Of a stretch of 64,000 nt of DNA, positions 2,946 to 49,049 are shown one piece after another (position 1 is the stretch's first letter; every line of letters starts with the position of its first letter). Under the pieces are notes generated by a model. That model had not been told where the DNA came from, made no database searches, and saw only the letters and a program-made list of their open reading frames with translations. Source of the stretch: a candidate division WWE3 bacterium RIFCSPHIGHO2_01_FULL_40_23 (lineage in GTDB: Bacteria > Patescibacteriota > WWE3 > UBA101185 > 2-01-FULL-41-18); contig MEUZ01000001.1 in NCBI GenBank assembly GCA_001772615.1, positions 120,623 through 184,622 of the forward strand. The letters run 5' to 3'. The position numbers and the translations under genes are program-made.

Positions 2946-3020
2946 TGGTGGGCGCGGATGGGATCGAACCATCGACATCCACTTTATAAGAGTGGCGCTC
3001 TTCCACTGAGCTACGCGCCC
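2946..3020 (-). tRNA. tRNA with anticodon UAU (probably tRNA-Ile reading AUA), 75 nt, CCA encoded
   Basis: Manual fold of the minus strand: acceptor GGGCGCG/CGCGCCC, D-arm GCTC-AGTGGAA-GAGC, anticodon stem CCACT/AGTGG with loop CTTATAA (U33, A37), variable loop ATGTC, T-arm GATGG-TTCGATC-CCATC, discriminator A, CCA. Confidence 0.65.
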
Positions 3021-3096
3021 CAAACCATCTCGTAAGGATTATAAGATTGCTTCACTTCGTTCGCAATGACAAATAAATATGGCAGACTACGTTATA

Positions 3097-10244: not shown

Positions 10245-10270
10245 AATTTCCCATCCTGAACTGACACTAT

Positions 10271-10377
10271 GTCATCCCGGGCCTGCCGGTAGGCAGGCTT
10301 GACCCGGGATCCCATCGGATCTTCTGTAGAGATCCCGCATCGAGCCTGCCCCTGCGAAGGCAGGGGTGCGGGATGAC
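10271..10377. repeat. composite palindromic repeat (MITE/REP-like), copy A: two hairpins with terminal GTCAT...ATGAC
   Basis: gtcatcccgggcctgccggtaggcaggcttgacccgggat - central GGATCTTCTGTAGAGATCC - cccgcatcgagcctgcccctgcgaaggcaggggtgcgggatgac. Homologous copies occur elsewhere in the window. Confidence 0.75.
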
Positions 10378-10387
10378 ACATCAAAGG

Positions 10388-12253: not shown

Positions 12254-12352
12254 GTCACTCTGGCACGCGAATTGTCACTCTGGCACGCGAATTGTCATTC
12301 TGGTGAAAGCCAGAATCTAGGATTACAGATCCCGCATCAAGTGCGGGATGAC
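12254..12352. repeat. composite palindromic repeat, copy B (includes a 20-nt tandem duplication, gtcactctggcacgcgaatt x2)
   Basis: gtcattctggtgaaagccagaatcta...gatcccgcatcaagtgcgggatgac. Same architecture as copies C and E. Confidence 0.75.
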
Positions 12353-12354
12353 AT

Positions 12355-14059: not shown

Positions 14060-15227
14060 AATTTTAAAGATTTCTCTTAAGGCGATCAGGGTAAATAAAG
14101 GAAGATCGGCCCTTACGGTTCTTGGGGTAGTAATCGGCGTGGCGTCGGTGATCCTTCTGGTTTCTCTTGTTTCAGGCCTTGGAAAGACAATAAGAGATCA
14201 GCTGGAAAGCTTCGGCGCCAATCTTTTGGTAATAATTCCGGGAGAGCCGGGCGGCGGAAGAGGCCCCGGCGGAGTAGTTACCAATAAACTTGAATTTAGG
14301 TTTACCTCACTTTTAGAAAACGGGGTGAATGAAATCAGCGAAGTTGTTCCCTCAATCCAGGGGGTAGGTGTAACAAAATATAAAAATAAAGAAACCTCCG
14401 ACACATCTATTTACGGCGTTACGGGAAATTACTTTGATGCTTTAAACATAGAAATAGTTGAGGGGAAAGCTTTTGCCAAAAACGAGCCTGGTAATTTTGT
14501 AGTCATAGGTTTTAAGGTAAAGGAAAAACTCTTTGGGGCCTCAAATCCTCTTGGCAAAGACATAACCATACAAAAAAGAAGGTTTAAAGTACTAGGAGTG
14601 CAGAAAGAAAGGGGAAATATTTTCGGAAGAGATCTTGATAACGTAATTTTAATTCCTCTTGGGCCCGCAAGGTCGCTTTTAGGAGTTGACAGGCCAAACT
14701 GGTTTTTTATAAAAGTTGAAAACGACAAAGATATAAACATTGCAAAAGAAAAGATTGAAAAACTATTGCTTAAGGATTTAGAGAAAGAAGATTTTACCGT
14801 GTCAACACAGGAAGATACCCTAGCTCTTATCGGAAGGATACTTGGAGTTTTATCGGCGGGATTGGGAGGGGTTGCGGCGATTTCTTTAATTGTCGGCGGG
14901 GTTGGAATTATGAATATAATGCTTGTTTCCGTAACGGAAAGGACTCGTGAAATTGGCTTAAGAAAGGCTCTTGGCGCTAGAAGAAGGGACATTCTGCTTC
15001 AATTTCTAACTGAAGCCGTTGTAATTAGTGTTCTTGGCGGACTCGCGGGGGTTATCGCAGGGATTTTACTTTCTCTTGTTGTGGGGAATTTTATAACCAC
15101 GGAAATTAACTTCTTTTATGTTCTCCTTGCTTTTTTCTTTTCAGCTGTGATAGGGATTATATTTGGAATCACCCCTGCAATAAAAGCCTCAAAACTCTCC
15201 CCCATTGAGGCGTTAAGGTATGAGTAA
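14046..15227 (+). CDS. ABC transporter permease, FtsX/MacB-like
   Basis: N-terminal TM, large periplasmic domain, C-terminal 3-TM FtsX fold (GGVGIMNIMLVSVTERTREIGLRKALGA). Confidence 0.8.
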   Translation: MNLSEILKISLKAIRVNKGRSALTVLGVVIGVASVILLVSLVSGLGKTIRDQLESFGANLLVIIPGEPGGGRGPGGVVTNKLEFRFTSLLENGVNEISEVVPSIQGVGVTKYKNKETSDTSIYGVTGNYFDALNIEIVEGKAFAKNEPGNFVVIGFKVKEKLFGASNPLGKDITIQKRRFKVLGVQKERGNIFGRDLDNVILIPLGPARSLLGVDRPNWFFIKVENDKDINIAKEKIEKLLLKDLEKEDFTVSTQEDTLALIGRILGVLSAGLGGVAAISLIVGGVGIMNIMLVSVTERTREIGLRKALGARRRDILLQFLTEAVVISVLGGLAGVIAGILLSLVVGNFITTEINFFYVLLAFFFSAVIGIIFGITPAIKASKLSPIEALRYE

Positions 15228-15316
15228 GTAAGATTGCTTCATAATCCTGATCACCCGTTTTCATAGGGGTGAACTCCAACCAGAATCTACAATATCATTC
15301 AAACAACTGCGCAATT

Positions 15317-15397
15317 GTCATTCTGGCGCAAGCCAGAATCTAAAATTATAGATCCTGAATCAAGCCTGCCCCTGCGAAGGCAGGGGTTCAGGATGAC
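15317..15397. repeat. composite palindromic repeat, copy C
   Basis: gtcattctggcgcaagccagaatcta...gatcctgaatcaagcctgcccctgcgaaggcaggggttcaggatgac. Confidence 0.75.
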
Positions 15398-15530
15398 GAG
15401 GATCAAGCCTGCCCTGAATATCTCAAGTTATTGCGAACCCGAGCCAGTGCCGAGGGTGAAGCAATCTAGAAATAAATAAACCCAAGGAGTTTGGAAACAA
15501 CGCCTTGGGTTTTTGGGTCGGAAAAGGGTC

Positions 15531-15785
15531 TTATACTAGAGGCTGGCCGCGATAGGTGTACTTGCCGGGGCCGGTTTTCACCGCGCCGAGAAGATTCATA
15601 GCCTCATCAAAACCGGAAAGAACCCTCGCCCCCTCATTATACTGAAGGTATCTGGAAGCACCTGAAATGATGAGATCCAAAAGTTCCTGCGGGTCTGAAA
15701 CATCTCCCAGATACTCAGCTGCGGTCAGGTCCCCTCTCGCCCTTTCCATCTCAGAAGCAAAAGATCTTACAACAATGGTTGCCAT
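15531..15785 (-). CDS. hypothetical protein, strongly GC-enriched relative to surroundings
   Basis: ORF in a ~55% GC stretch bounded by repeat copies C and D. Confidence 0.35.
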   Translation of the reverse strand: MATIVVRSFASEMERARGDLTAAEYLGDVSDPQELLDLIISGASRYLQYNEGARVLSGFDEAMNLLGAVKTGPGKYTYRGQPLV

Positions 15786-15888
15786 GTGTCTTTATCCCTT
15801 CTTTTTTAGAGTTATCTTATAGTATAACAAGATGCGTGGAAGTTTTCAAAAGGTGTATACTATAGGAAACGGGAGAAAGGAGGTAAGG

Positions 15889-16077
15889 ATGAACGGGTAT
15901 GTATTGATTTTCTGGGAGGGGAGATGGAGGATAGTGGATGCTGACACCAAGCGTGAACACCCGTCTTCCATAATGCGAAACGGCTTCGCTTCCAAAGATG
16001 AGGCGAAGAGCTTCGCAAATACGTTTGGCATACCGATCGTTGATTTCGAAAAGAACTTAGTCCAATCACATCAATAA
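15889..16077 (+). CDS. hypothetical small protein (start chosen at MNGYVL with a GGAGG Shine-Dalgarno)
   Basis: aggaggtaaggATG, followed by a terminator hairpin. Confidence 0.35.
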   Translation: MNGYVLIFWEGRWRIVDADTKREHPSSIMRNGFASKDEAKSFANTFGIPIVDFEKNLVQSHQ

Positions 16078-16089
16078 CGCCCCCATCGC

Positions 16090-16125
16090 AAGGCCTGGCG
16101 TACACTAACCCAGGCCTTTTCCTCT
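16090..16125 (+). terminator. rho-independent terminator (aggcctgg...ccaggcct + TTTCCTCTT)
   Basis: 8-bp GC-rich stem followed by a T-rich tract directly after the 15889..16077 ORF. Confidence 0.45.
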
Positions 16126-16132
16126 TGGTCTT

Positions 16133-16178
16133 GTCATGCCAGAATCTAGAAGAGATCCCGGGTCAAGCCCGGGATGAC
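16133..16178. repeat. composite palindromic repeat, copy D (first hairpin truncated)
   Basis: gtcatgccagaatctagaagagatcccgggtcaagcccgggatgac. Confidence 0.7.
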
Positions 16179-16251
16179 ATGAAGTCAGTTCAGGATGGCT
16201 GTATGAGACCTCGCATTCGCACACCTCACGGCCTTGTTATAAAATATCTCA

Positions 16252-17190
16252 ATGGCAGCGCAAATTATTAACGGGAAAGAAATAGCAGCTCAAATACTTT
16301 CAGAAGTTAAATCCGAAATCCTAAAGAATAAATTGAATTTAAAACTTGCGATAATTCAAATCGGTGAGGACGAGGCAACAAACATCTACATTAAAAATAA
16401 AATAAAGAGAGCTGACGAAGTTGGAATTAAAACCGAACTTCATAAATACCAGAATGACATAACTGAAGAAGAGGTGGGAAATCTCATCCAAAAGCTAAAC
16501 GTAGATTCCTCCGTCACGGGATTTTTCATTCAAACTCCCATTCCCTCCCATCTGGATTTATTAAAGCTCGTTTCAAAAATAGATTCTAAAAAAGACATTG
16601 ATGGCATGAATCCTTATAACCTAGGTGCATTACTGCAAGGCAGAAGCAGTGTTTTAGTATCTGCTACAGCAGAGGCTGTACTTAAAACACTAGAATATGC
16701 CTACGTGTGCCATACCGGACTTGATCCATGTCATTCTGGACCTGATCCAGAATCTATAAGCCTAGATCCCGGCCTTCGCCGGGATGACAAAGTAAAAGAC
16801 ACTGCACAACCCGATATCAGTAACCCATTAATGGGAAAACACGCCGTTATAATCGGAAGGTCTTTAATTCTTGGAAAACCTCTTTCAGCCCTTTTACTAA
16901 ATAAGGACTGTACTGTAACTTTATGTCACAGCAAAACAAAAAATCTAAAAGAAATTTGTAAACAAGCTGACATTCTCGTAACGGGAACTGGGCTTAGTGA
17001 CTTTATGAAGAAAGACTTTGTTAAAGAAGGGGTTTTTGTTATTGACTGTGGCTCGCCAAAAGCCGAAGTTGATTTTAATAATGTTATAATGAGGGCAGGA
17101 TATATAACACCTGTCCCCGGAGGCATTGGCCCAATAACCATAGCCTCTCTATTAAAAAACTGCCTCAAAGCACACAATCTTCAACAATAG
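16252..17190 (+). CDS. folD: bifunctional methylene-THF dehydrogenase/methenyl-THF cyclohydrolase FolD, carrying an in-frame ~38-aa insertion derived from a palindromic repeat
   Basis: FolD motifs (GKHAVIIGRSLILGKPLSALL, TVTLCHSKT, ADILVTGTG, VIDCG, TPVPGGIGPIT). The segment CHTGLDPCHSGPDPESISLDPGLRRDDKVKDT is encoded by repeat copy E. Confidence 0.8.
   Translation: MAAQIINGKEIAAQILSEVKSEILKNKLNLKLAIIQIGEDEATNIYIKNKIKRADEVGIKTELHKYQNDITEEEVGNLIQKLNVDSSVTGFFIQTPIPSHLDLLKLVSKIDSKKDIDGMNPYNLGALLQGRSSVLVSATAEAVLKTLEYAYVCHTGLDPCHSGPDPESISLDPGLRRDDKVKDTAQPDISNPLMGKHAVIIGRSLILGKPLSALLLNKDCTVTLCHSKTKNLKEICKQADILVTGTGLSDFMKKDFVKEGVFVIDCGSPKAEVDFNNVIMRAGYITPVPGGIGPITIASLLKNCLKAHNLQQ
16729..16787. repeat. 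composite palindromic repeat, copy E, located inside the folD reading frame
   Basis: gtcattctggacctgatccagaatctataagcctagatcccggccttcgccgggatgac. Same two-hairpin architecture as the intergenic copies. Confidence 0.75.
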
Positions 17191-19021: not shown

Positions 19022-19633
19022 ATGCCGGGACTAAATTCAAACAATTCAATAAGAAGAGGAATCTTAAGCTACGATTCAAATTTTAAAGACCGCTGTTTTG
19101 CTAATTATACGGATCTGGAACCGATTATAGGCCATTGCAAAGGCCTTGGTTTAAGGATAGTTCTGACTTCGGGAACATTTGATATGGTTCATATAGGGCA
19201 TGCAAGATACCTTGAGACTGCAAAAAAATTCGGGGACTTTCTGATAGTCGGCGTTGACAGCGATGAAAAAGTGAGAAAAAGAAAAGGGCCTGACAGGCCG
19301 ATAGTTCCCCACACGGAAAGAATGGAAATTTTATCCCACATGAGATATGTAGATGCTGTTGTGCTCAAAGCCATCAACGCTCCAAGATGGGCGCTCATAA
19401 AAATGGCAAAACCTGATGTTTTAATTGCCACTCAAGAAACATACACAAAAGAAGAGCTTATTGAACTTAAAAAATATTGCGGCAAGGTTGTGGTTTTAGA
19501 CCCGATGGCAACCACGTCAACAAGCGCAAAAATAAGAAGGCTTCAAATAAGTATGGCGGGAAGACTTGAGAAAATACTAACCCCTAAACTTTTACAAGCG
19601 ATTGAAGAGTCCCTTGAAGAAGTAAAAAAATGA
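19022..19633 (+). CDS. cytidylyltransferase-like nucleotidyltransferase (TagD/RfaE-domain-II-like)
   Basis: GTFDMVHIGHARYL (HxGH) plus the downstream DSDEKVRKRKGPDRPIVPHTERMEIL pattern. Stop overlaps the next start (ATGA). Confidence 0.55.
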   Translation: MPGLNSNNSIRRGILSYDSNFKDRCFANYTDLEPIIGHCKGLGLRIVLTSGTFDMVHIGHARYLETAKKFGDFLIVGVDSDEKVRKRKGPDRPIVPHTERMEILSHMRYVDAVVLKAINAPRWALIKMAKPDVLIATQETYTKEELIELKKYCGKVVVLDPMATTSTSAKIRRLQISMAGRLEKILTPKLLQAIEESLEEVKK

Positions 19634-20478
19634 AAAAAGTTATAGTAGCTTACATTCCGGTTTTACATGAAGGGTATAGAAGGTTCATTGAAAAACATAA
19701 AGATGCCAAAGTCATTTATATTTTCGGAAAAGATATTATTCTGGAATTTGATCACCTCTCAAAAGAGATTAGGGCACTTGATCCAAAGCTTGTTTTAAAA
19801 TCCCTTGAATCATGGGGCTTAATCTCTAAAGCAAAAATCTTAAAACATAATGATCTTCAAAAACTCAACAACTACAAATACAACATTGTAGTTCCTGACG
19901 AAGATGTGACAAAAGAACTTTCTGAAAAGTACTTAAAGAAAGCTAGTGTTTTCTATGACCCGATATTCCTCCGCTGGGACAAACATAAATCTATGGAGCA
20001 AAAGCCTATTGAAGCCGATCAGAAGATATCCTCGGAAGAATTTGATAAAAACGCAATTAGAGAAACCCTTAAAGCTTCAGAAAGAGCTTCCGACTGGTGG
20101 AGAAGAGTGGGGGCGGCAATAGTTAAAAACAAGAAAATCATTATTATTGCGCACAACAGGCACCTTCCATCACCTCATTCTCCCTATGCAAACGGTGACC
20201 CTAGAAACAATTTCCATAAAGGGGTAAACATAGAATTGTCAACAGCAATTCACGCGGAAGCAGATTTAATCTCCCAAGCCGCCAAGAAGGGAATTCCCTT
20301 AAAGGGAAGCTCTATGTATGTTAGTGTGTTTCCCTGCCCTCCATGTGCAAAACTCGTTGCGCGTTCGGGAATATCAAAATTGTATTATGGAGGAGGGTAT
20401 GGGGTTTTGGATGGCGAGGACATTCTAAAAGCATCCGGGGTAGAAATTATTTATGTGGACTTAATGGCAGAAAAATAA
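19630..20478 (+). CDS. dCMP/cytidine deaminase zinc-binding family with a ~150-aa N-terminal extension of unknown function
   Basis: HAEADLISQA...VFPCPPCAKLV (H-A-E ... PCxxC) in the C-terminal half. Confidence 0.65.
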   Translation: MKKVIVAYIPVLHEGYRRFIEKHKDAKVIYIFGKDIILEFDHLSKEIRALDPKLVLKSLESWGLISKAKILKHNDLQKLNNYKYNIVVPDEDVTKELSEKYLKKASVFYDPIFLRWDKHKSMEQKPIEADQKISSEEFDKNAIRETLKASERASDWWRRVGAAIVKNKKIIIIAHNRHLPSPHSPYANGDPRNNFHKGVNIELSTAIHAEADLISQAAKKGIPLKGSSMYVSVFPCPPCAKLVARSGISKLYYGGGYGVLDGEDILKASGVEIIYVDLMAEK

Positions 20479-20487
20479 GCCGGTTGG

Positions 20488-21444
20488 TTAATTACCTTCC
20501 GGCTTACGAACTGTTCCAACCTTGAACCTCACGGGCTCAAAATCGGGCTTACCCATATCAGGAACCACAAACTGAACGTGTAAGTGCTTCACACTGGCTC
20601 CGGAATATGAGCTCTCTCCAAACCTCAAAAAGAACATCCCTCCGATCACTTTGAAGAAAGCTTCCGCCCAAGTGAGCAGTTCAAACAACTCCACTCCGGC
20701 TTGGGGGTTCATCTCCGAAAGAGTTTCCGCATGGAACTTGTAAATGGCCAGAAGGTGAATACGGGTGTTTGACTTTGGCCATTGGGTTAAGGTGAGAACC
20801 CAGAATTTTCCTTCCCTGATAATCTCCTTGTGATGATACTTGGCAAGGTTTTCAGGGCAGAAAGGGCACACACCTTCAGCCGTAATCCGGCTCATTACAG
20901 CCAGTTGATCGGGTGTCCGCGCGTGGGCAAGATCCACATAGACCTTTTTCCTTTTGTACACTTCAAAGGTGTAATCAAAAGGGTTTTTGGCGTCTTTGGT
21001 ACGCGGATCGGAGCTCACAAGCTCCCATTCAAACTCACTGTATCTAGGGAAGGAGGCATCCCCACCAACTTCAACGTCCACCCTAGTGATATAAAGAAAG
21101 TCCGCTAGAGGGAGAAACATTCTGTACACAAGCTCTCCCCCGATAATAAACACCTCCTTATCCTTCATGTAGCCCGCTTTCAGGAGAGCTTCGTCAATGG
21201 TTAAAGCAGTCTCACACCCATCACATACAGCGGGCCTGCTTACCAGGACCACGTTCTTTCTCCCCGGAAGCGGCCCACCCAGATTGTCTCTTATGGACCT
21301 AAAGGTCTTATGGCCCATGATTACAGGGTGGCCTCCGGTTTTATCGGCGAAGTACTTAAGATCCGCCGGCAAGTTCCAAGGCACCTTTCCATCTTTCCCG
21401 ATCACGCCATTTTTGGAAACGGCCGCAATCAAAGATATGGTCAT
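20488..21444 (-). CDS. folA: dihydrofolate reductase fused to a C-terminal HIT-superfamily (HxHxQ branch, Ap4A phosphorylase/GalT-like) domain
   Basis: N-terminal ~165 aa is DHFR (ISLIAAVSKNGVIGKDGKVPW, GRKNVVLVSR, FIIGGELVY). C-terminal ~150 aa carries CPFC and VKHLHVQFVV. Confidence 0.7.
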   Translation of the reverse strand: MTISLIAAVSKNGVIGKDGKVPWNLPADLKYFADKTGGHPVIMGHKTFRSIRDNLGGPLPGRKNVVLVSRPAVCDGCETALTIDEALLKAGYMKDKEVFIIGGELVYRMFLPLADFLYITRVDVEVGGDASFPRYSEFEWELVSSDPRTKDAKNPFDYTFEVYKRKKVYVDLAHARTPDQLAVMSRITAEGVCPFCPENLAKYHHKEIIREGKFWVLTLTQWPKSNTRIHLLAIYKFHAETLSEMNPQAGVELFELLTWAEAFFKVIGGMFFLRFGESSYSGASVKHLHVQFVVPDMGKPDFEPVRFKVGTVRKPEGN

Positions 21445-21471
21445 ACTCCTTTGCTCCTTTCTTTGCTCTCT

Positions 21472-22392
21472 TCAGATTGCTACCGGAATGCCTTTAATTC
21501 CGGGGTGCGGGTTGTAATCCGACAGAGTGAAGTGCCCCCTTCTGAAAGCAAAGAGATCCGTGATACTTTGATCAAGAACCATCGTAGGAAACGGCCTTGA
21601 CTCCCGCTCAAGCATAGTCTTGACGGCAGGAAGCTGGTCCACAAAAATATGCGCGTCGGAAATGGTGTGAATAAACTCATAAGCTTCCACACCTAAAACC
21701 TGCGCAATCGCCATTAACAACGCGAAGTACTGCACCATGTTAGATGGCACCCCCACCCCCGCGTCACCAGATCTCTGGAACATGTGAAGGGTCAGCTTGC
21801 CATTTAGGATCCTTAGATGAACCCAGCCATGGCACGGAACCACAACCACTTTCTGCTGCCTCCCCGTAACACGGATTGCGTATTGAGGAATCCACGGCGA
21901 GACAAAGTGGGTCCTCAATTGAGGCTGTTCCCTCATCTGCCGCAGAATGTATTCAAACTGATTGAACGATCCACCTTCCGCAGTAGGAAAATTGTGAAAC
22001 GCCGCGCCGTAAGAACCGGGACCAAGATCGCCGGGTTCAAGCCCGCGCTTGGCACACTTTTCAGGAGTGGCCCACTTATCCCACCAGTAGCATCCGTGAG
22101 CTTCAAGTTCCCCTAAAGTTCTGGCTCCGTTAATGAAGGCAAATATCTCCCCGATAGCCTGCTGCCAGATTGTTACGGGCAAGCGTTCCGAAGTTTTCGG
22201 ATCCATGTTTCTCTCTGTGATAACAGGAAATCCGTTGTTCAAACGGAATCTCATTATCCCCGGGGCCATGTAGGTAATGGCATCAATCCCTTGTTGTGAC
22301 TGAACCCGCTCTCCATAGCGAAGAATTCTCCACAGGAGCCTTTTGTACTGACCATCAGGCGTGCGATCTGCTAGAGGTTTCATTCTGCTCAT
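21472..22392 (-). CDS. thyA: thymidylate synthase ThyA
   Basis: VVVVPCHGWVHL...LHMFQRSGDAGVGVPSN...YNPHPGIKGIPVAI aligns with the canonical ThyA active-site and C-terminal motifs. Confidence 0.85.
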   Translation of the reverse strand: MSRMKPLADRTPDGQYKRLLWRILRYGERVQSQQGIDAITYMAPGIMRFRLNNGFPVITERNMDPKTSERLPVTIWQQAIGEIFAFINGARTLGELEAHGCYWWDKWATPEKCAKRGLEPGDLGPGSYGAAFHNFPTAEGGSFNQFEYILRQMREQPQLRTHFVSPWIPQYAIRVTGRQQKVVVVPCHGWVHLRILNGKLTLHMFQRSGDAGVGVPSNMVQYFALLMAIAQVLGVEAYEFIHTISDAHIFVDQLPAVKTMLERESRPFPTMVLDQSITDLFAFRRGHFTLSDYNPHPGIKGIPVAI

Positions 22393-23346: not shown

Positions 23347-23425
23347 CCGTTGCCATCGTGTCCACAGTCAGCGAAGGTTGAAGAAAGTCCCTTTCATCAT
23401 TGCAATAATGGGAGTTTTAACAAAG

Positions 23426-23513
23426 TCATTGCGAAGGCAAAGCCCGAAGCAATCTACAACAGATCCCGCACCTACCACCTCACCTGCTGTCATTCCCGCG
23501 AAAGCGGGAATCT
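23426..23513. repeat. degenerate composite palindromic repeat, copy F
   Basis: gtcattgcgaaggcaaagcccgaagcaatctacaacagatcccgcacc...gtcattcccgcgaaagcgggaatc. Track ORFs 23333..23527 and 23350..23544 overlap it and are probably spurious. Confidence 0.55.
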
Positions 23514-23562
23514 TAACGGAACATTGAACATAGAGCTCATATAAGCTAAAATGCCTCCATAT

Positions 23563-23637
23563 TCCGGCGTGGCGAAACGGTATCGCGGCTCCCTGTTAAG
23601 GAGATGATTGTAGGTTCGAATCCTATCGCCGGAGCCA
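23563..23637 (+). tRNA. tRNA-Asn (anticodon GUU), 75 nt, CCA encoded
   Basis: Manual fold: acceptor TCCGGCG/CGCCGGA, D-arm GCGA-AACGGTA-TCGC, anticodon stem GCTCC/GGAGA (one G-A mismatch) with loop CTGTTAA, T-arm GTAGG-TTCGAAT-CCTAT, discriminator G, CCA. Confidence 0.75.
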
Positions 23638-23658: not shown

Positions 23659-24045
23659 ATGAGTCAGGAAGAAATAATAAAATCGTGGAGAGAAAGTGCC
23701 AAAAGAAATTTGGATACAGCCAGAGATTTAATTAAATCAAAGCATTATGATTGGGCACTGTTCCTTGGTGAGCTTGCGCTAGAAAAATCACTGAAAGGAG
23801 CCATCACCAAACTACAGAATGACTCCCCACCTTATACCCACAACCTTGTCAAGCTAGCAGAACTTTCAAGCATAGCATTTACACAACAGGATTTAGAAGA
23901 TCTTGCCCAAATTACTAAATATAATGTCCAGGCAAGATATGATGATATCAAGTATCAGTTATATAAAATGGCAACAAAGGAATATACAGAAGAATGGTTT
24001 ACAAAAATAGAAAGGCTATATTCATGGATAGGAAAACATTATTAA
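23659..24045 (+). CDS. HEPN-domain protein (partner of the downstream MNT; putative toxin-antitoxin pair)
   Basis: All-alpha, with the ALFLGELALEKSLKGAI pattern. Overlaps the next gene by 22 nt. Confidence 0.5.
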   Translation: MSQEEIIKSWRESAKRNLDTARDLIKSKHYDWALFLGELALEKSLKGAITKLQNDSPPYTHNLVKLAELSSIAFTQQDLEDLAQITKYNVQARYDDIKYQLYKMATKEYTEEWFTKIERLYSWIGKHY

Positions 24046-24353
24046 GGGACGAGCCCAAAAATTTAATAAAAACATTGAGAAAGGCGTTTCAAGCTAACGG
24101 TGTGCCCGTTGATAAAATTATAATTTTTGGATCTTATGCAAAAAAAACTAACAGACCTGACAGTGACTTAGACTTATGTGTAGTTTCAAAATCCTTTGGA
24201 AAAGACTCTTTAAAGGAAATGATGGAGCTTACTAAGATATCATCTAGAATTGACCCAATGATTGAAATTCACCCATATAACCCACAGGATCTTAATAATA
24301 AATTTGATCCGTTGGCGAAGGAAATTAGAGAGCATGGGATTTTGGGGTATTAA
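24024..24353 (+). CDS. minimal nucleotidyltransferase (MNT, Pol-beta superfamily)
   Basis: IIIFGSYAKKTNRPDSDLDLCVV (GS-x9-DxD). Start chosen at MDRKTLL. Confidence 0.65.
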   Translation: MDRKTLLRDEPKNLIKTLRKAFQANGVPVDKIIIFGSYAKKTNRPDSDLDLCVVSKSFGKDSLKEMMELTKISSRIDPMIEIHPYNPQDLNNKFDPLAKEIREHGILGY

Positions 24354-24368
24354 ACAGATTGCTGGCAT

Positions 24369-24408
24369 AAGGAGATGGTTGTAGGTTCGAATCCTATCGC
24401 CGGAGCCA
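24369..24408. repeat. 40-nt direct repeat of the 3' end of tRNA-Asn (1 mismatch), att-like
   Basis: aaggagatgGttgtaggttcgaatcctatcgccggagcca versus tRNA positions 23598..23637 (gatgAttg). Overlaps the 3' end of the recombinase gene. Confidence 0.75.
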
Positions 24409-25911
24409 ATTAGACCGTATCCGAACCAAGTTTCGTGATACCAACGCCTCAAACTCTGGTACAAACTCGAAACTGGTTATTGTTCGTTCTTTTTCCAGAA
24501 ACGCCTTTGAAATGAAGAAGCGGAGAAACTGCTTTTGTTGAACCTTGGTCATTGCGTCGTAAAGCTCACCTATATTTTTCATACCCTGGATCACTTTCTC
24601 AATTTCTGAATCTTTGAGGTTAGTTGAGGGCTTATCCATTTCTATTATCTGTGCATCTACTTGTTTTAGTTCTTCCTTCAACGGCTGGTAGCGTGCCTTG
24701 ATTCTTTCCGATTCAACAAGTTCATCTCCACCAAACATTTTATCTTCAAGCACCTTCATCTTTTTATCAAGTATGTCTCTCCTTTGTCTAAGCGTTTTAA
24801 GTTGTTCAGGAACGCTTGTACCTTGCTCCTGTTTTACTTCCAACAGCACATTTCGTAAATTATTTAATGCCTTTTCGGTAAATACCGTGCCATGAAAAAA
24901 TGCGGATACTCTTTTATCTGCTTTCTCCAATGAAACATAGGTTTTCTCACAAGTCTTACATCTAAAATAGTTACCTTTTGGGTGGTACTCGGCAGCCATT
25001 AAACTGCCGCACTTGAGACAATGGGCATACCCAGCTAACAGGGTGGTATATTTTCTTGTGCGGTTTGCACCTTTGTTTCTTTTTTCAAACATAAGTAGAG
25101 ATTTCTTATACCAATCAACTGGCACAATTGGTTCGTGAGCCGCCTTTTCATATATTACCCCGTCATAAGACAGCCCGCCACAATAGAGTATGTTTTTAAG
25201 GATGTTGGTCATTGTATTTTTATTGACCTTACCACCAGAAGTATTTCTCAGACCCTGCTCGTATAAAATGTTTGTTATTGAGTAGACGGTGTGGTTTCCA
25301 GAAATCCACATTTCATAAGCCTTGTAAATAAAATGTTTCCTTTCTGGGTCAGGGTAAATCGGTTTGTCCTTTTGAAATGAGTTACAAAATCCGAGTGGAC
25401 TTTTTCCTGGTTTCATCCCTTTTTCTGCAAGTGCCTTCATGATCCTTTTCGTTTTTTTACCAGTACGCCTCGATTCCAATTGGTTGACCGCCGCAACAAT
25501 TACATCAAGGAAGTCGCCCTCGTCTGTGTCGCCATAATAAGAACCATCTAATGGAATTAGTTTTATGTTTCTTTTTTTCAGGAACGCCTTAACTGTCAGA
25601 TGATCCGCAACATTTCTTGCCAGTCTGCTTGAGTCTTGAACCAGTACGAGATCAACCGTGGCAGCATTGTCATCACAGTAATCCAGCAGTTCTTCCATAT
25701 CAGGTCTGTCCAGGTCTCTCGCACTTCGCCCCGAATCTTCAAATACTTTCAAAATGGTTATGTTGTTTTGACTCACAAAGTTTTGAAAAAGTTGGTCTTG
25801 CACTTCCAAGCTATGTCCTGTAAGAGCCTGGTTTGGTGTTGAAACTCGTTTGTAGCACACAGATTTTAACATTGTGCCTGTCTTTGGTTTTATATCTTCT
25901 AATCCGTACAT
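24394..25911 (-). CDS. large serine recombinase (resolvase/invertase N-domain + recombinase domain + zinc ribbon)
   Basis: Catalytic motif YKRVSTPNQ near the N-terminus, a C-terminal CLKCGS...CKTC zinc ribbon and a coiled-coil tail. True start may be the internal MLKSV. Confidence 0.8.
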   Translation of the reverse strand: MYGLEDIKPKTGTMLKSVCYKRVSTPNQALTGHSLEVQDQLFQNFVSQNNITILKVFEDSGRSARDLDRPDMEELLDYCDDNAATVDLVLVQDSSRLARNVADHLTVKAFLKKRNIKLIPLDGSYYGDTDEGDFLDVIVAAVNQLESRRTGKKTKRIMKALAEKGMKPGKSPLGFCNSFQKDKPIYPDPERKHFIYKAYEMWISGNHTVYSITNILYEQGLRNTSGGKVNKNTMTNILKNILYCGGLSYDGVIYEKAAHEPIVPVDWYKKSLLMFEKRNKGANRTRKYTTLLAGYAHCLKCGSLMAAEYHPKGNYFRCKTCEKTYVSLEKADKRVSAFFHGTVFTEKALNNLRNVLLEVKQEQGTSVPEQLKTLRQRRDILDKKMKVLEDKMFGGDELVESERIKARYQPLKEELKQVDAQIIEMDKPSTNLKDSEIEKVIQGMKNIGELYDAMTKVQQKQFLRFFISKAFLEKERTITSFEFVPEFEALVSRNLVRIRSNWLRR

Positions 25912-28560: not shown

Positions 28561-28980
28561 TTACTTTATCTTGTTGTATCGAAACTTGACTTCAATACCT
28601 GACCTCGATGGTTCTGGTTTATCCGCCTCAGTAAAATAGTTTTTCAGCTTAAAAATAAACTCTAATGCTTTTAACTGGCTGTTGTGATCTGGTACTGCAA
28701 CCTGCTCTTTTGTTACTGGGTTGCGAATATACTTAACAGCGTCTAATGCTTCTTTGAGTTTCTCAAATAGCACATAATCAGGTAAATCCAACCTTTCATC
28801 ATAATTGTGCAGATGCAGAAGTATTGAGGGTTTTCTTATGTTTTGGCTTCCTATAACCGATGCTATGTGCCTGTCCTTAACATCCTTATATGCGATCAAT
28901 GCTGCTTCCGTTAAAGAACCAGTCTCAATATATTTTTCAACAAAGATACGCTGAGAAACCGTTAAACGCCTATTCATCAT
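28561..28980 (-). CDS. terminase small subunit-like HTH protein
   Basis: N-terminus LTVSQRIFVEKYIETGSLTEAALIAYKDVKDRHIASVIGSQNIRKPSI matches the characteristic TerS N-terminal HTH pattern (LTxKQxxFxxEY...TxAAxxAGYS). Confidence 0.5.
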   Translation of the reverse strand: MMNRRLTVSQRIFVEKYIETGSLTEAALIAYKDVKDRHIASVIGSQNIRKPSILLHLHNYDERLDLPDYVLFEKLKEALDAVKYIRNPVTKEQVAVPDHNSQLKALEFIFKLKNYFTEADKPEPSRSGIEVKFRYNKIK

Positions 28981-48879: not shown

Positions 48880-48887
48880 ACCCCCAT

Positions 48888-48955
48888 GTCATCCCGCACT
48901 TGATGCGGGATCTCTACAGAAGATCCAACGGGATCCCCGCTTTCGCGGGGATGAC
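48888..48955. repeat. composite palindromic repeat, copy G (inverted orientation relative to copy A)
   Basis: gtcatcccgcacttgatgcgggatc-tctacagaagatcc-aacgggatccccgctttcgcggggatgac. The central ggatctctacagaagatcc is the reverse complement of the copy A centre. Confidence 0.75.
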
Positions 48956-49049
48956 AAGTCCTGTTCAGCATAGCATCGACCAGACCCATCCATGTTCTTA
49001 GATAGCGTTGATTTGGCTTAACCCCCAACCTGAAATATAATAATACCGC

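What the first reader, a model, noticed from the sequence alone, without database searches (positions are those of the whole stretch)
10271..10377. Family of composite two-hairpin palindromic repeats (MITE/REP-like) with at least seven copies and compensatory stem variation
Copies sit at 10271-10377, 12254-12352, 15317-15397, 16133-16178, 16729-16787, 23426-23513 and 48888-48955. They share terminal GTCAT(Y)C...GGATGAC, an internal GATC-flanked centre (GGATCTTCTGTAGAGATCC in copies A and G) and two hairpins. Stems differ between copies but stay complementary (cccgca/tgcggg; cccggg/cccggg; ttctgg/ccagaa; tcctgaa/ttcagga), which points to selection on the hairpin structure, either RNA/DNA structure or transposase recognition. 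Copy G is inverted relative to copy A, and copy B carries a 20-nt tandem duplication. Most copies lie just 3' of genes, where they could act as terminators or mRNA stabilisers, and several carry GATC. This density (about 1 per 9 kb) is high for a small genome.
Basis: seen in the sequence. Interest (0 to 1): 0.7.

Follow-up and report, generated by a model that had tools for sequence, protein, structure and literature searches.

The report
GTC-tagged DNA hairpin repeats (SRM/CGTC-REP)
The repeats are real and belong to a known, widespread class of short DNA hairpin repeats (CGTC-tagged REPs, also called NTS or Ssn-related motifs); here they occur in a tiny-genome CPR bacterium (candidate division WWE3), where one pair even sits in frame inside the essential folD gene.

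Summary
The unit is a 23-24-nt module: (T/C)GTC tag, 8-bp stem starting AT, 4-5-nt loop, then C. The window holds 12 intact modules (about 1 expected by chance), mostly as inverted pairs with the tags outside. It also holds truncated copies and three copies of an ATTGC-stem variant. Stem covariation is genuine: 100% of stem cells pair, and 4 of 7 positions change on both sides. An unconstrained metagenome scan gave 104 of 122 matches fully complementary, with 31 different stems.

The module meets the published definitions of CGTC-tagged REPs (Di Nocera 2013) and of the Ssn-related motif (Chenal 2025). The invariant bases are the ones Neisseria SsnA needs for cleavage and binding. My model built from the window also finds clusters flanking a GIY-YIG gene in another organism.

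Sister genomes have empty sites at four positions. There is no target-site duplication, no T-run after the hairpins and no G·U wobble excess, so the element acts as DNA and is neither a classical MITE nor a terminator. No Ssn gene lies in the 84 kb of this genome I could see.

Verdict: a new member of a known kind. Side findings are the in-frame folD insert, recurrent "orphan-head" duplications and a two-tier loop variant.

The parts
10270..10311 (+). Module A1. TGTC tag, stem ATCCCGGG, two-tier loop with inner hairpin CCTGCC-GGTA-GGCAGG followed by CTTGA.
10327..10378 (-). Module A2. TGTC tag, stem ATCCCGCA, two-tier loop CCCCTGC-CTTC-GCAGGGG-CAGGCTCGA. Forms a tags-outside (HH) doublet with A1. 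Lies 10 nt after the ArsR stop and 26 nt before the SufC start.
   Evidence: (L087 19070-19121)
12254..12293 (+). Two tandem 20-nt 'orphan heads' (GTCACTCTGGCACGCGAATT x2) immediately 5' of module B1.
12293..12321 (+). Module B1. Stem ATTCTGG. Matches the SRM string.
12324..12353 (-). Module B2. Stem ATCCCGCA, loop CTTGA. Its tag abuts the ABC ATPase start codon ATG at 12353. Doublet B fills the HlyD|ABC junction, which is overlapping in relatives.
15316..15344 (+). Module C1. Stem ATTCTGGC.
15347..15398 (-). Module C2. CGTC tag, stem ATCCTGAA, two-tier loop identical to that of A2.
   Evidence: (D3)
15430..15467 (+). ATTGC-stem variant (ATTGCGAA...GAAGCAAT-CT). No GTC tag.
15399..16131 (.). 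Lineage-specific, higher-GC cassette carrying two ORFan genes (15531-15785 on the minus strand, 15832-16077 on the plus strand). It is bracketed by the same-orientation doublets C and D and is absent from relatives.
16132..16150 (+). Module D1, truncated (TGTCAT|GCCAGAATCTAG). The 5' arm and loop are deleted.
16150..16179 (-). Module D2. Stem ATCCCGGG. Beyond the tag it shares about 15 nt of flank with A1.
   Evidence: (I4)
16708..16824 (+). 117-nt (39-codon) in-frame insertion in folD (ORF 16252-17190). It consists of a 21-nt orphan head, doublet E and a 35-nt tail.
16729..16758 (+). Module E1. Stem ATTCTGGA.
16761..16789 (-). Module E2. Stem ATCCCGGC.
23425..23457 (+). F1. ATTGC-stem variant with an AGTC tag, upstream of tRNA-Asn.
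23488..23516 (+). Module F2 (TGTCATTCCCGCGAAAGCGGGAATCT). Its 20-nt palindrome fits the dRS3 pattern ATTCCC[N8]GGGAAT, and the module differs from the published NTS string only at the first base (T for C) and in the tail.
48887..48916 (+). Module G1. Stem ATCCCGCA. Begins 8 nt after the stop codon of the short-chain dehydrogenase (SDR) gene.
48928..48956 (-). Module G2. Stem ATCCCCGC. Doublet G is inverted relative to doublet A.
   Evidence: (I2)
3041..3071 (-). ATTGC-stem variant with a TGTC tag, 24 nt upstream of tRNA-Ile(TAT).

Best explanation
These are CGTC/TGTC-tagged repetitive palindromic DNA elements. They belong to the same family as Neisseria dRS3/NTS, Rickettsia RPE-4/-6 and the 'Ssn-related motifs' (SRM). 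Most are arranged as inverted heterodimers with the tags outside ('HH' dimers). The host is a candidate division WWE3 (CPR) bacterium.

They act at the DNA level. When the DNA is single-stranded (replication, repair or uptake), each module folds into an 8-bp hairpin. That hairpin presents an unpaired GTC on its 5' side and a C on its 3' side.

Inferred by analogy: this is the substrate of a small GIY-YIG single-strand nuclease of the Ssn family. Such an enzyme binds the hairpin plus the 3' C and nicks a few nucleotides upstream, in or near the GTC tag. Nicking and processing of single-stranded intermediates, not cut-and-paste transposition, would then spread and rearrange the elements.

Shown here:
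- The elements were gained in this lineage at sites that are empty in sister genomes.
- They leave no target-site duplication.
- They tolerate nested hairpins in the loop.
- They are often accompanied by one-module-length duplications of the tag plus the 5' arm.

Side effects rather than the primary function: they can land in frame in coding sequence (a disordered loop in FolD), and they sit where ribosome-binding sites are needed. Any effect on mRNA would also be secondary.
For: Fit to published definitions:
- The module matches the CGTC-REP definition: a CGTC tag often changed to TGTC, an 8-9-bp stem beginning A-T/T-A, a 4-5-nt loop, a short tail, predominantly HH dimers, intragenic units, and no dedicated transposase.
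- Six modules match the SRM string HGTCWYN(0-2)YYVSBRHN(0-5)WNVSBRGN(0-2)RNCYNB, against 0.15 expected.
- The invariant columns are G2, T3, C4, the A-T/T-A/C-G stem positions, and C26. Chenal et al. found the three bases upstream of the palindrome decisive for SsnA cleavage, and the C just after it decisive for binding.

Link to Ssn:
- A covariance model built only from this genome's modules finds 10 hits flanking both sides of a Pfam-confirmed GIY-YIG gene in L199. These include the same doublets and the same two-tier loop motif GGCAGGCTYRA.

Structure and level of action:
- Structure is conserved while sequence is not: 104 of 122 unconstrained metagenome matches are fully complementary, with 31 different stems.
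- The constraint is on DNA, not RNA: 96% Watson-Crick pairs, with G·T (8) about equal to A·C (9), and no T-runs after the hairpins.
- The composites fold as single-stranded DNA with z-scores of -3.9 to -5.6.

Gain in this lineage:
- The orthologous junctions SufC|ArsR, HlyD|ABC and FtsX|FolD, and the folD codon site, are empty in L093-L096.
- No TSD was found at the flanks of 51 doublets.
Against: - No Ssn/GIY-YIG gene lies in the window or in 10 kb on either side, about 84 kb in all. This holds for motif, phmmer and HMM searches and for the precomputed Pfam lists. I could not reach the rest of the genome.
- I could not show that any CPR genome encodes an Ssn homolog. L199's relatives carry Ignavibacteria/Bacteroidota names.
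- Chenal et al. report that changing the palindrome sequence while keeping the hairpin abolishes Nm SsnA activity. This genome has at least 7 different stems among 13 modules, so one enzyme may not recognise all copies.
- How SRM/CGTC elements multiply has not been demonstrated in any organism.
Confidence: 0.68

Rival explanations
1. Orphan, self-maintaining palindromes. The repeats belong to the CGTC/SRM sequence family, but this genome has no cognate nuclease, either because it was lost or because it never arrived. The copies then spread and persist through host recombination, replication slippage and template switching within quasi-palindromes. That process automatically restores complementarity, so the compensatory changes need no selection.
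For: No Ssn gene was found in 84 kb. Chenal et al. report that 19% of genomes with more than 200 SRMs lack an Ssn homolog, and Di Nocera et al. found no dedicated enzyme. Orphan-head duplications one module-length upstream (19 of 208 modules), tandem 20-nt repeats and truncated copies (D1, F) look like products of slippage or template switching.
Against: All 12 modules have perfect 8-bp stems or nearly so, and the unpaired tag GTC and the 3' C are invariant. Template switching inside a palindrome would not conserve unpaired flanking bases, so this pattern suggests recognition by a protein. The new insertions at four sites, compared with sister genomes, argue for an active process.
Confidence: 0.17
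2. RNA-level elements. The hairpins act in transcripts as terminators, 3'-end stabilisers or translational modulators, and that function is what conserves the stems.
For: A, B, C and G begin 8-90 nt after stop codons. C lies between the FtsX stop and a terminator-like hairpin at about 15481-15517, so it is probably transcribed (read by eye). Di Nocera et al. argue that many REPs are transcribed. SRM-derived arms supply AGGA/GGGA just upstream of the SufC and ABC start codons.
Against: No T-run follows any module. Modules occur in both orientations within each doublet. There is no excess of G·U-type pairs: 8 G·T against 9 A·C among 665 cells. Copies lie inside an ORF and upstream of tRNA genes. 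No Rfam family matches.
Confidence: 0.08
3. Transposase-mobilised miniature elements: REPINs moved by a RAYT (IS200/IS605 Y1 transposase), or MITEs derived from an IS.
For: The inverted-pair architecture resembles REPINs and BIMEs. The distribution is patchy, with gain in this lineage.
Against: The tag is GTC, not GTAG. No Y1_Tnp or other transposase appears in any of the Pfam lists or recurs in 119 repeat-bearing loci. No TSD was found. The two arms of each doublet have different stems, so they are not true terminal inverted repeats. The literature finds no RAYT association for CGTC REPs.
Confidence: 0.04
4. Recombination or integration target sites. The hairpins serve mainly as attachment sites or portable homology for integrating elements, in the way dRS3 is used by Neisseria filamentous prophages and flanks variable islands.
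For: The same-orientation doublets C and D bracket a lineage-specific, higher-GC 0.7-kb cassette. dRS3 is a known target of a phage recombinase. Three independent contigs break inside the cassette at position 15855.
Against: The cassette genes are ORFans with no copy elsewhere, so mobility cannot be shown. The integrated phage-like element in the window uses the 3' end of tRNA-Asn, not a module. Most doublets flank nothing foreign.
Confidence: 0.03

Closest known systems
Ssn-related motifs (SRM) / Neisseria Transformation Sequence (NTS) and dRS3 (Chenal et al. 2025, PMC11893778)
   Same: The layout is the same: an unpaired (C/T)GTC, a palindrome beginning ATYC, a short loop, then a C after the palindrome. 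Six copies match the SRM search string. Module F2 (TGTCATTCCCGCGAAAGCGGGAATCT) contains the dRS3 pattern ATTCCC[N8]GGGAAT. As in Neisseria, copies cluster around membrane-transport genes and occur as inverted pairs flanking genes.
   Different: The tag is TGTC rather than CGTC. There are many different stems in one genome. The host is a CPR bacterium, a group not mentioned in that paper's main text. No ssnA gene was seen in the accessible 84 kb. About a quarter of the modules carry a nested inner hairpin.
CGTC-tagged REP superfamily, families CGTC-1 (4-nt loop) and CGTC-2 (5-nt loop) (Di Nocera et al. 2013, PMC3733652)
   Same: The tag (TGTC is an allowed variant), the 8-bp stem starting A-T/T-A, the 4- or 5-nt loops, the HH heterodimers with 12-21-nt spacers, the intragenic copies, and the lack of an associated transposase.
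   Different: The tail is mostly CTA/CTC rather than the CCA consensus. Modules of CGTC-1 and CGTC-2 type are combined within the same doublet. That study found the family in 5 phyla, mainly alpha-Proteobacteria, not in CPR.
Rickettsia palindromic elements (RPE-4 / RPE-6 are CGTC REPs)
   Same: In-frame insertion of the palindromic repeat into an essential protein-coding gene, which is tolerated as an extra surface peptide.
   Different: Here the insert is a 117-nt composite in folD. A second lineage (L093) carries a different 222-nt composite at the same codon position.
GTAG REPs / REPINs / BIMEs with RAYT transposases
   Same: Short hairpin repeats with an unpaired tag, organised as inverted dimers. 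They are thought to be processed as single-stranded DNA, and they leave no TSD.
   Different: The tag is different (GTAG), the enzyme family is different (Y1 transposase), and no RAYT is present here.

Membership tests
CGTC-tagged REP superfamily (Di Nocera 2013) | Unpaired CGTC tag at one end (TGTC or CCTC variants allowed) | tested here: met
   12 of 13 modules carry TGTC and 1 carries CGTC. G, T and C are invariant. Definition taken.
CGTC-tagged REP superfamily (Di Nocera 2013) | Stem of 8-9 bp whose first two pairs are A-T and T-A | tested here: met
   Stems are 7-8 bp with perfect pairing, and all begin AT...AT.
CGTC-tagged REP superfamily (Di Nocera 2013) | Loop of 4 nt (family 1) or 5 nt (families 2-4) | tested here: met
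   10 of 13 modules have 4-6-nt loops. The other 3 have a 21-27-nt loop containing an inner hairpin. The paper notes aberrant loops in some taxa.
CGTC-tagged REP superfamily (Di Nocera 2013) | Short unpaired tail, consensus CCA | tested here: inconclusive
   The first tail base, C, is invariant. The next bases are mostly TA, TC or CC, giving CTA rather than CCA.
CGTC-tagged REP superfamily (Di Nocera 2013) | Predominantly HH dimers (tags outside) | tested here: met
   A, B, C, E and G are intact HH doublets and D is a truncated one. HH definition. There are 48 HH pairs in the metagenome loci.
Ssn-related motif (SRM) (Chenal 2025) | Matches the SRM search string and is enriched over dinucleotide-type shuffles | tested here: met
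   6 exact matches against 0.15 expected.
Ssn-related motif (SRM) (Chenal 2025) | Conservation of the bases that SsnA needs: the 3 nt upstream of the palindrome and the C after it | tested here: met
   Invariant G2, T3, C4 and C26. The mutational data are described.
Ssn-related motif (SRM) (Chenal 2025) | A cd10448 GIY-YIG (ssn) gene in the same genome, typically flanked by the motifs | tested here: inconclusive
   None in the window or within 10 kb on either side. The rest of the genome could not be reached. The association was reproduced in another organism (L199).
Ssn-related motif (SRM) (Chenal 2025) | Cleaved as single-stranded DNA by the cognate Ssn | not testable with these tools
   Requires biochemistry.
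GTAG REP / REPIN-RAYT | GTAG tag and an associated RAYT (Y1 transposase) gene | tested here: not met
   The tag is GTC. No Y1_Tnp appears in the Pfam lists, and none recurs in the 119 loci.
MITE (IS-derived) | Terminal inverted repeats plus a target-site duplication | tested here: not met
   None of 51 doublets has an adjacent TSD of 3 nt or more, and flank similarity equals the control. The arms of each doublet have different stems.
Intrinsic (rho-independent) terminator | GC-rich hairpin followed by a T-run | tested here: not met
   None of the modules appears among the terminator-like sites. The tails are CTA, CTC or CCC.
Any Rfam RNA family | Reaches a family's gathering score | tested here: not met
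   Only two tRNAs are found in the window.

The most novel reading that the evidence does not exclude
In this CPR lineage the GTC-tagged hairpins may be propagated or maintained without a canonical Ssn partner, or with an unrecognised one. Two recurrent features would then be footprints of the still-unknown copying mechanism of CGTC/SRM elements. The first is the 'orphan head': the tag plus the same 5' arm, duplicated one module-length upstream, seen in about 9% of modules across unrelated metagenomes. The second is the conserved two-tier loop variant (...GGCAGGCTYRA). A plausible mechanism is a nick at the tag followed by hairpin-primed or template-switch synthesis. The doublets may additionally act as portable homology that captured the FtsX-FolD cassette, and they may repeatedly hit the same permissive codon of folD.
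Probability: 0.15. Interest if true: 0.65.

Novelty: new member of a known kind. Interest (0 to 1): 0.35.

Why it matters
The finding extends a cross-phylum class of single-strand-DNA hairpin repeats (dRS3/NTS/SRM, the CGTC REPs) to the Candidate Phyla Radiation. These are ultra-small genomes that are thought to depend on DNA uptake. In Neisseria, the Ssn-NTS interaction restricts incoming transforming single-stranded DNA.

It also provides clean filled-versus-empty sites, including an in-frame insert in an essential enzyme. It flags two family-wide anatomical features, orphan-head duplications and two-tier loops, that could help work out how these elements multiply. That question has been open since the first descriptions of the family.

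On a practical level, the repeats fragment metagenome assemblies and generate spurious 'hypothetical proteins'.

Tried and rejected
- Rfam gathering search of the window: only two tRNAs.
- Same-strain contigs L001-L006 are at least 99.9% identical to the window, so they are useless for presence/absence.
- Motif searches for GIY-YIG in the window and in the SHMT-neighbourhood loci found nothing.
- All-against-all clustering of ORFs in the 119 repeat-bearing loci to find an associated gene: no recurrent family beyond MacB-type ABC and FtsX proteins, 5 loci each.
- TSD test: negative. The apparent 12-nt direct repeat flanking the L093 folD insert therefore remains anecdotal.
- GATC/Dam idea: GATC is at chance frequency.
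- Terminator idea: no T-runs.
- Cassette-mobilisation idea: both cassette proteins are ORFans with no Pfam, PHROG or NCBIfam hit and no homolog in the fetched loci.
- First tag-and-tail script used a wrong length range. It was discarded and redone.
- Supplementary tables of the Ssn paper are not held, so its CPR coverage could not be checked.
- Literature search found no report of these repeats in CPR.
- Viral contigs: only 11 matches, not pursued further.

Full report
**1. What is in the sequence**

The module is an unpaired (T/C)GTC, an 8-bp stem that always starts AT-YC, a 4-6-nt loop, the complementary arm ending GR-AT, and then an invariant C.

A scan requiring GTCAT plus a perfect stem finds 12 such modules in the window, against a mean of 0.98 in Markov shuffles. 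A relaxed scan and an exhaustive covariance-model search add only a truncated copy (D1), three weak or degenerate hits, and one more intact module 5 kb left of the window in the same genome.

Ten of the intact modules form five inverted pairs with the tags on the outside (A, B, C, E, G), separated by 12-21 nt. D is such a pair with a half-deleted left module. F is a degenerate ATTGC-stem variant, plus a truncated arm, plus one intact module.

G is inverted relative to A (I2). B carries a 2 x 20-nt tandem repeat. The stems differ but remain complementary.

**2. Is the covariation real?**

On the 13 modules of this genome, the seven alignable stem pairs are 100% paired. Four pairs show changes on both sides (15 cells), 0 of 500 shuffles reach this, and slid controls give 11-53% pairing.

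Because I had found the modules by requiring a stem, I repeated the test without that requirement. Of 15 sites that have only the tag and the AT-C tail at the right spacing, nine have 5/5 inner pairs. Shuffles gave 2 of 1708.

An independent test used the public metagenome collection. The pattern TGTCATYC-NNNN-CTYGA-NNNN-GRATCT leaves four stem positions free. Of 122 matches in 119 contigs, 104 had all four free positions and the Y-R pair complementary (chance is about 0.2%), with 31 different stems. The structure, not the sequence, is what is conserved, and the family is very widespread. Host contig GC ranges from 0.23 to 0.67 with a median of 0.40.

**3. Organism and context**

The FolD protein of the window is identical to a GenBank protein of 'candidate division WWE3 bacterium RIFCSPHIGHO2_01_FULL_40_23'. 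The nearest SHMT relatives are other CPR/Patescibacteria MAGs.

Nine of the 12 modules lie in 10.2-16.8 kb, around a suf operon, a MacB-type efflux operon (HlyD-ABC-FtsX) and folD.
- Doublet A lies 10 nt after the ArsR stop and 26 nt before the SufC start.
- B fills the HlyD|ABC junction, and its tag abuts the ABC ATG.
- C follows FtsX and D precedes folD.
- E is inside folD.
- F lies upstream of tRNA-Asn.
- G begins 8 nt after the stop codon of a short-chain dehydrogenase (SDR) gene.

**4. Gain relative to sister genomes**

Three syntenic loci from related WWE3-like genomes were recovered. In L093 and L095, HlyD and ABC overlap. SufC and ArsR are 8 nt apart in L093. FtsX and FolD overlap in L093 and are 139 nt apart, without modules, in L094. 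Sites A to D are therefore filled only in the window's lineage.

FolD is 312 aa here against 274 aa in its closest relatives. The alignment places a 39-aa (117-nt) insert between LEYAYV and LMGKH. The insert consists of a 21-nt copy of the module head, doublet E and a 35-nt tail.

An AlphaFold model folds the enzyme confidently, with a mean pLDDT of 87.6. It leaves residues 158-186 as a disordered loop between helix 138-155 and strand 197-201. The insert is present in all contigs from several samples. A more distant relative (L093) has a different 222-nt insert at the same position, also made of GTC-tagged modules.

**5. What it is**

A literature search with the sequence itself led to two papers.

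Di Nocera et al. 2013 define a 'CGTC-tagged' REP superfamily. Its features are a tag often changed to TGTC, 8-9-bp stems beginning with A-T/T-A, 4- or 5-nt loops, a short tail, predominantly HH (tags-outside) dimers that are often heterodimers, intragenic copies, and no dedicated transposase. Neisseria dRS3 and Rickettsia RPE-4/-6 are members. Every feature except the exact tail consensus is met here.

Chenal et al. 2025 show that the longer form of dRS3 (NTS, CGTCATTCCCGCGMAVGCGGGAATCYRG) and its relatives ('Ssn-related motifs') are bound as single-stranded hairpins and cut a few nucleotides upstream by SsnA. SsnA is a roughly 100-aa GIY-YIG nuclease whose gene is typically flanked by the motifs. 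Six window modules match their SRM search string, against 0.15 expected.

The positions that never vary in my alignment are the GTC upstream of the palindrome and the C just after it. The mutational analysis in that paper found the upstream bases critical for cleavage and that C critical for binding.

The covariance model built only from this genome's modules also finds ten hits on both sides of a Pfam-confirmed GIY-YIG gene on contig L199. These include identical doublet architecture and the same two-tier loop motif. The homologs of that protein number in the thousands and are labelled Ignavibacteria/Bacteroidota.

**6. DNA or RNA? Transposon or not?**

- No module is followed by a T-run.
- In the unconstrained metagenome set, 638 of 665 stem cells are Watson-Crick. 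G·T (8) is no commoner than A·C (9), so there is no RNA-type wobble tolerance.
- The composites fold well as single-stranded DNA (z -3.9 to -5.6). They fold either as two hairpins or, when the outer tags also pair, as a branched structure.
- Flanks of 51 doublets show no target-site duplication.
- No transposase or other gene family recurs in the 119 repeat-bearing loci.
- GATC is at chance frequency and arises from the GGAT|C junction.

**7. What remains open**

No Ssn-like gene exists in the window or within 10 kb on either side. I could not reach the rest of the genome or show an Ssn in any CPR genome. The stem diversity within one genome also sits uneasily with the sequence specificity reported for Nm SsnA.

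The mechanism I commit to is single-strand hairpins recognised and nicked by an Ssn-type nuclease, with spread through single-stranded intermediates. It is therefore an inference from family membership and from the conservation pattern, not something shown for this genome. A rival in which the repeats are orphans maintained by slippage or template switching keeps appreciable weight.

**8. Features worth recording**

(a) In 19 of 208 modules from many organisms, a copy of the tag plus the same 5' arm, without a 3' arm, lies 19-24 nt upstream. That distance is one module-length. The downstream control is flat. Window copies B1 and E1 show this, and so does the L093 insert; A1 and D2 are preceded by a shared flank that contains a 5'-arm sequence (ATCCTGAA) but no GTC tag.

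(b) Three window modules, one in L093 and several in L199 have a nested inner hairpin followed by CAGGCTYRA in the loop, with covarying inner stems.

(c) A sub-family ATTGCGAA...GAAGCAAT-CT occurs three times (0 expected). Two of the three lie just upstream of the two tRNA genes.

(d) The same-orientation doublets C and D bracket a lineage-specific, higher-GC 0.7-kb cassette of two ORFan genes.

**9. Verdict**

They are not MITEs in the transposase sense, and they are not terminators. The family is already known, so this is a new member in a new host group, with a few instructive anatomical details.

Noticed in passing
window 23563-23637 and 24368-24408; 23659-24353; 24394-25911; 28561-28980: The 3' 41 nt of tRNA-Asn are duplicated 771 nt downstream at 98% identity. 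The two copies bracket a HEPN/nucleotidyltransferase pair. A large serine recombinase and phage-like genes (small terminase subunit) follow. This looks like an integrated phage-like element using tRNA-Asn as its attachment site.
   Followed up: partly
window 20488-22392: The thyA-folA block has GC of about 0.50 against about 0.40 for the window, which suggests horizontal acquisition. The DHFR ORF is 318 aa, but Pfam DHFR covers only residues 2-165. The roughly 150-aa C-terminal extension has no Pfam hit and contains an HLHVQF (HIT-like) motif.
   Followed up: partly
window 2946-3020: ARAGORN calls a tRNA-Ile with anticodon TAT (UAU), an uncommon way of reading AUA in bacteria. An ATTGC-stem repeat variant sits 24 nt upstream of it, and another sits upstream of tRNA-Asn.
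   Followed up: partly
L087:1-1412 (left of the window) and L093:2739-4580: Precomputed Pfam lists show an intein (Intein_splicing) inside FtsH in this genome and inside SufB in the related genome L093.
   Followed up: no
window ~14912-14961 (L002) and 19630-20478: Strain-level variation: contig L002 from another sample has a roughly 50-60-nt duplication or indel inside the FtsX permease gene, giving a called product of 298 aa instead of 393 aa, and a split dCMP-deaminase gene. In L231 folD is called as two ORFs.
   Followed up: no
window 15855 and 16168: Three independent contigs (L003, L005, L006) all end at window position 15855, inside the C-D cassette. L004 ends at 16168, inside doublet D. 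The region fragments assemblies or is polymorphic in the population.
   Followed up: partly
L094:2340-2470: In a sister genome, the FtsX-FolD spacer, which is empty of GTC modules, holds an unrelated long near-perfect palindrome (GGGAAAGATACGAGTATGTATTTTTGAGGG...CCCTCAAAAATACATTCTCGCTATCTTTCC).
   Followed up: no
L097-L215 (metagenome loci): The only protein families recurring near modules in the 119 loci are a MacB-type ABC ATPase and an FtsX permease, 5 loci each. This is the same operon type that the window's modules cluster around. It may be coincidence, because these genes are common in CPR.
   Followed up: no
L216-L226 (viral contigs): Only 11 matches to the module pattern were found in 2.9 million viral contigs. 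All 11 have perfectly paired stems, so the elements are rare in phage or prophage sequence.
   Followed up: partly
window 15481-15517: A terminator-like hairpin with a T-run (ACCCAAGG...CCTTGGGTTTTTGGG) lies downstream of doublet C and the ATTGC variant. These repeats probably sit in the 3' UTR of the FtsX operon transcript.
   Followed up: no
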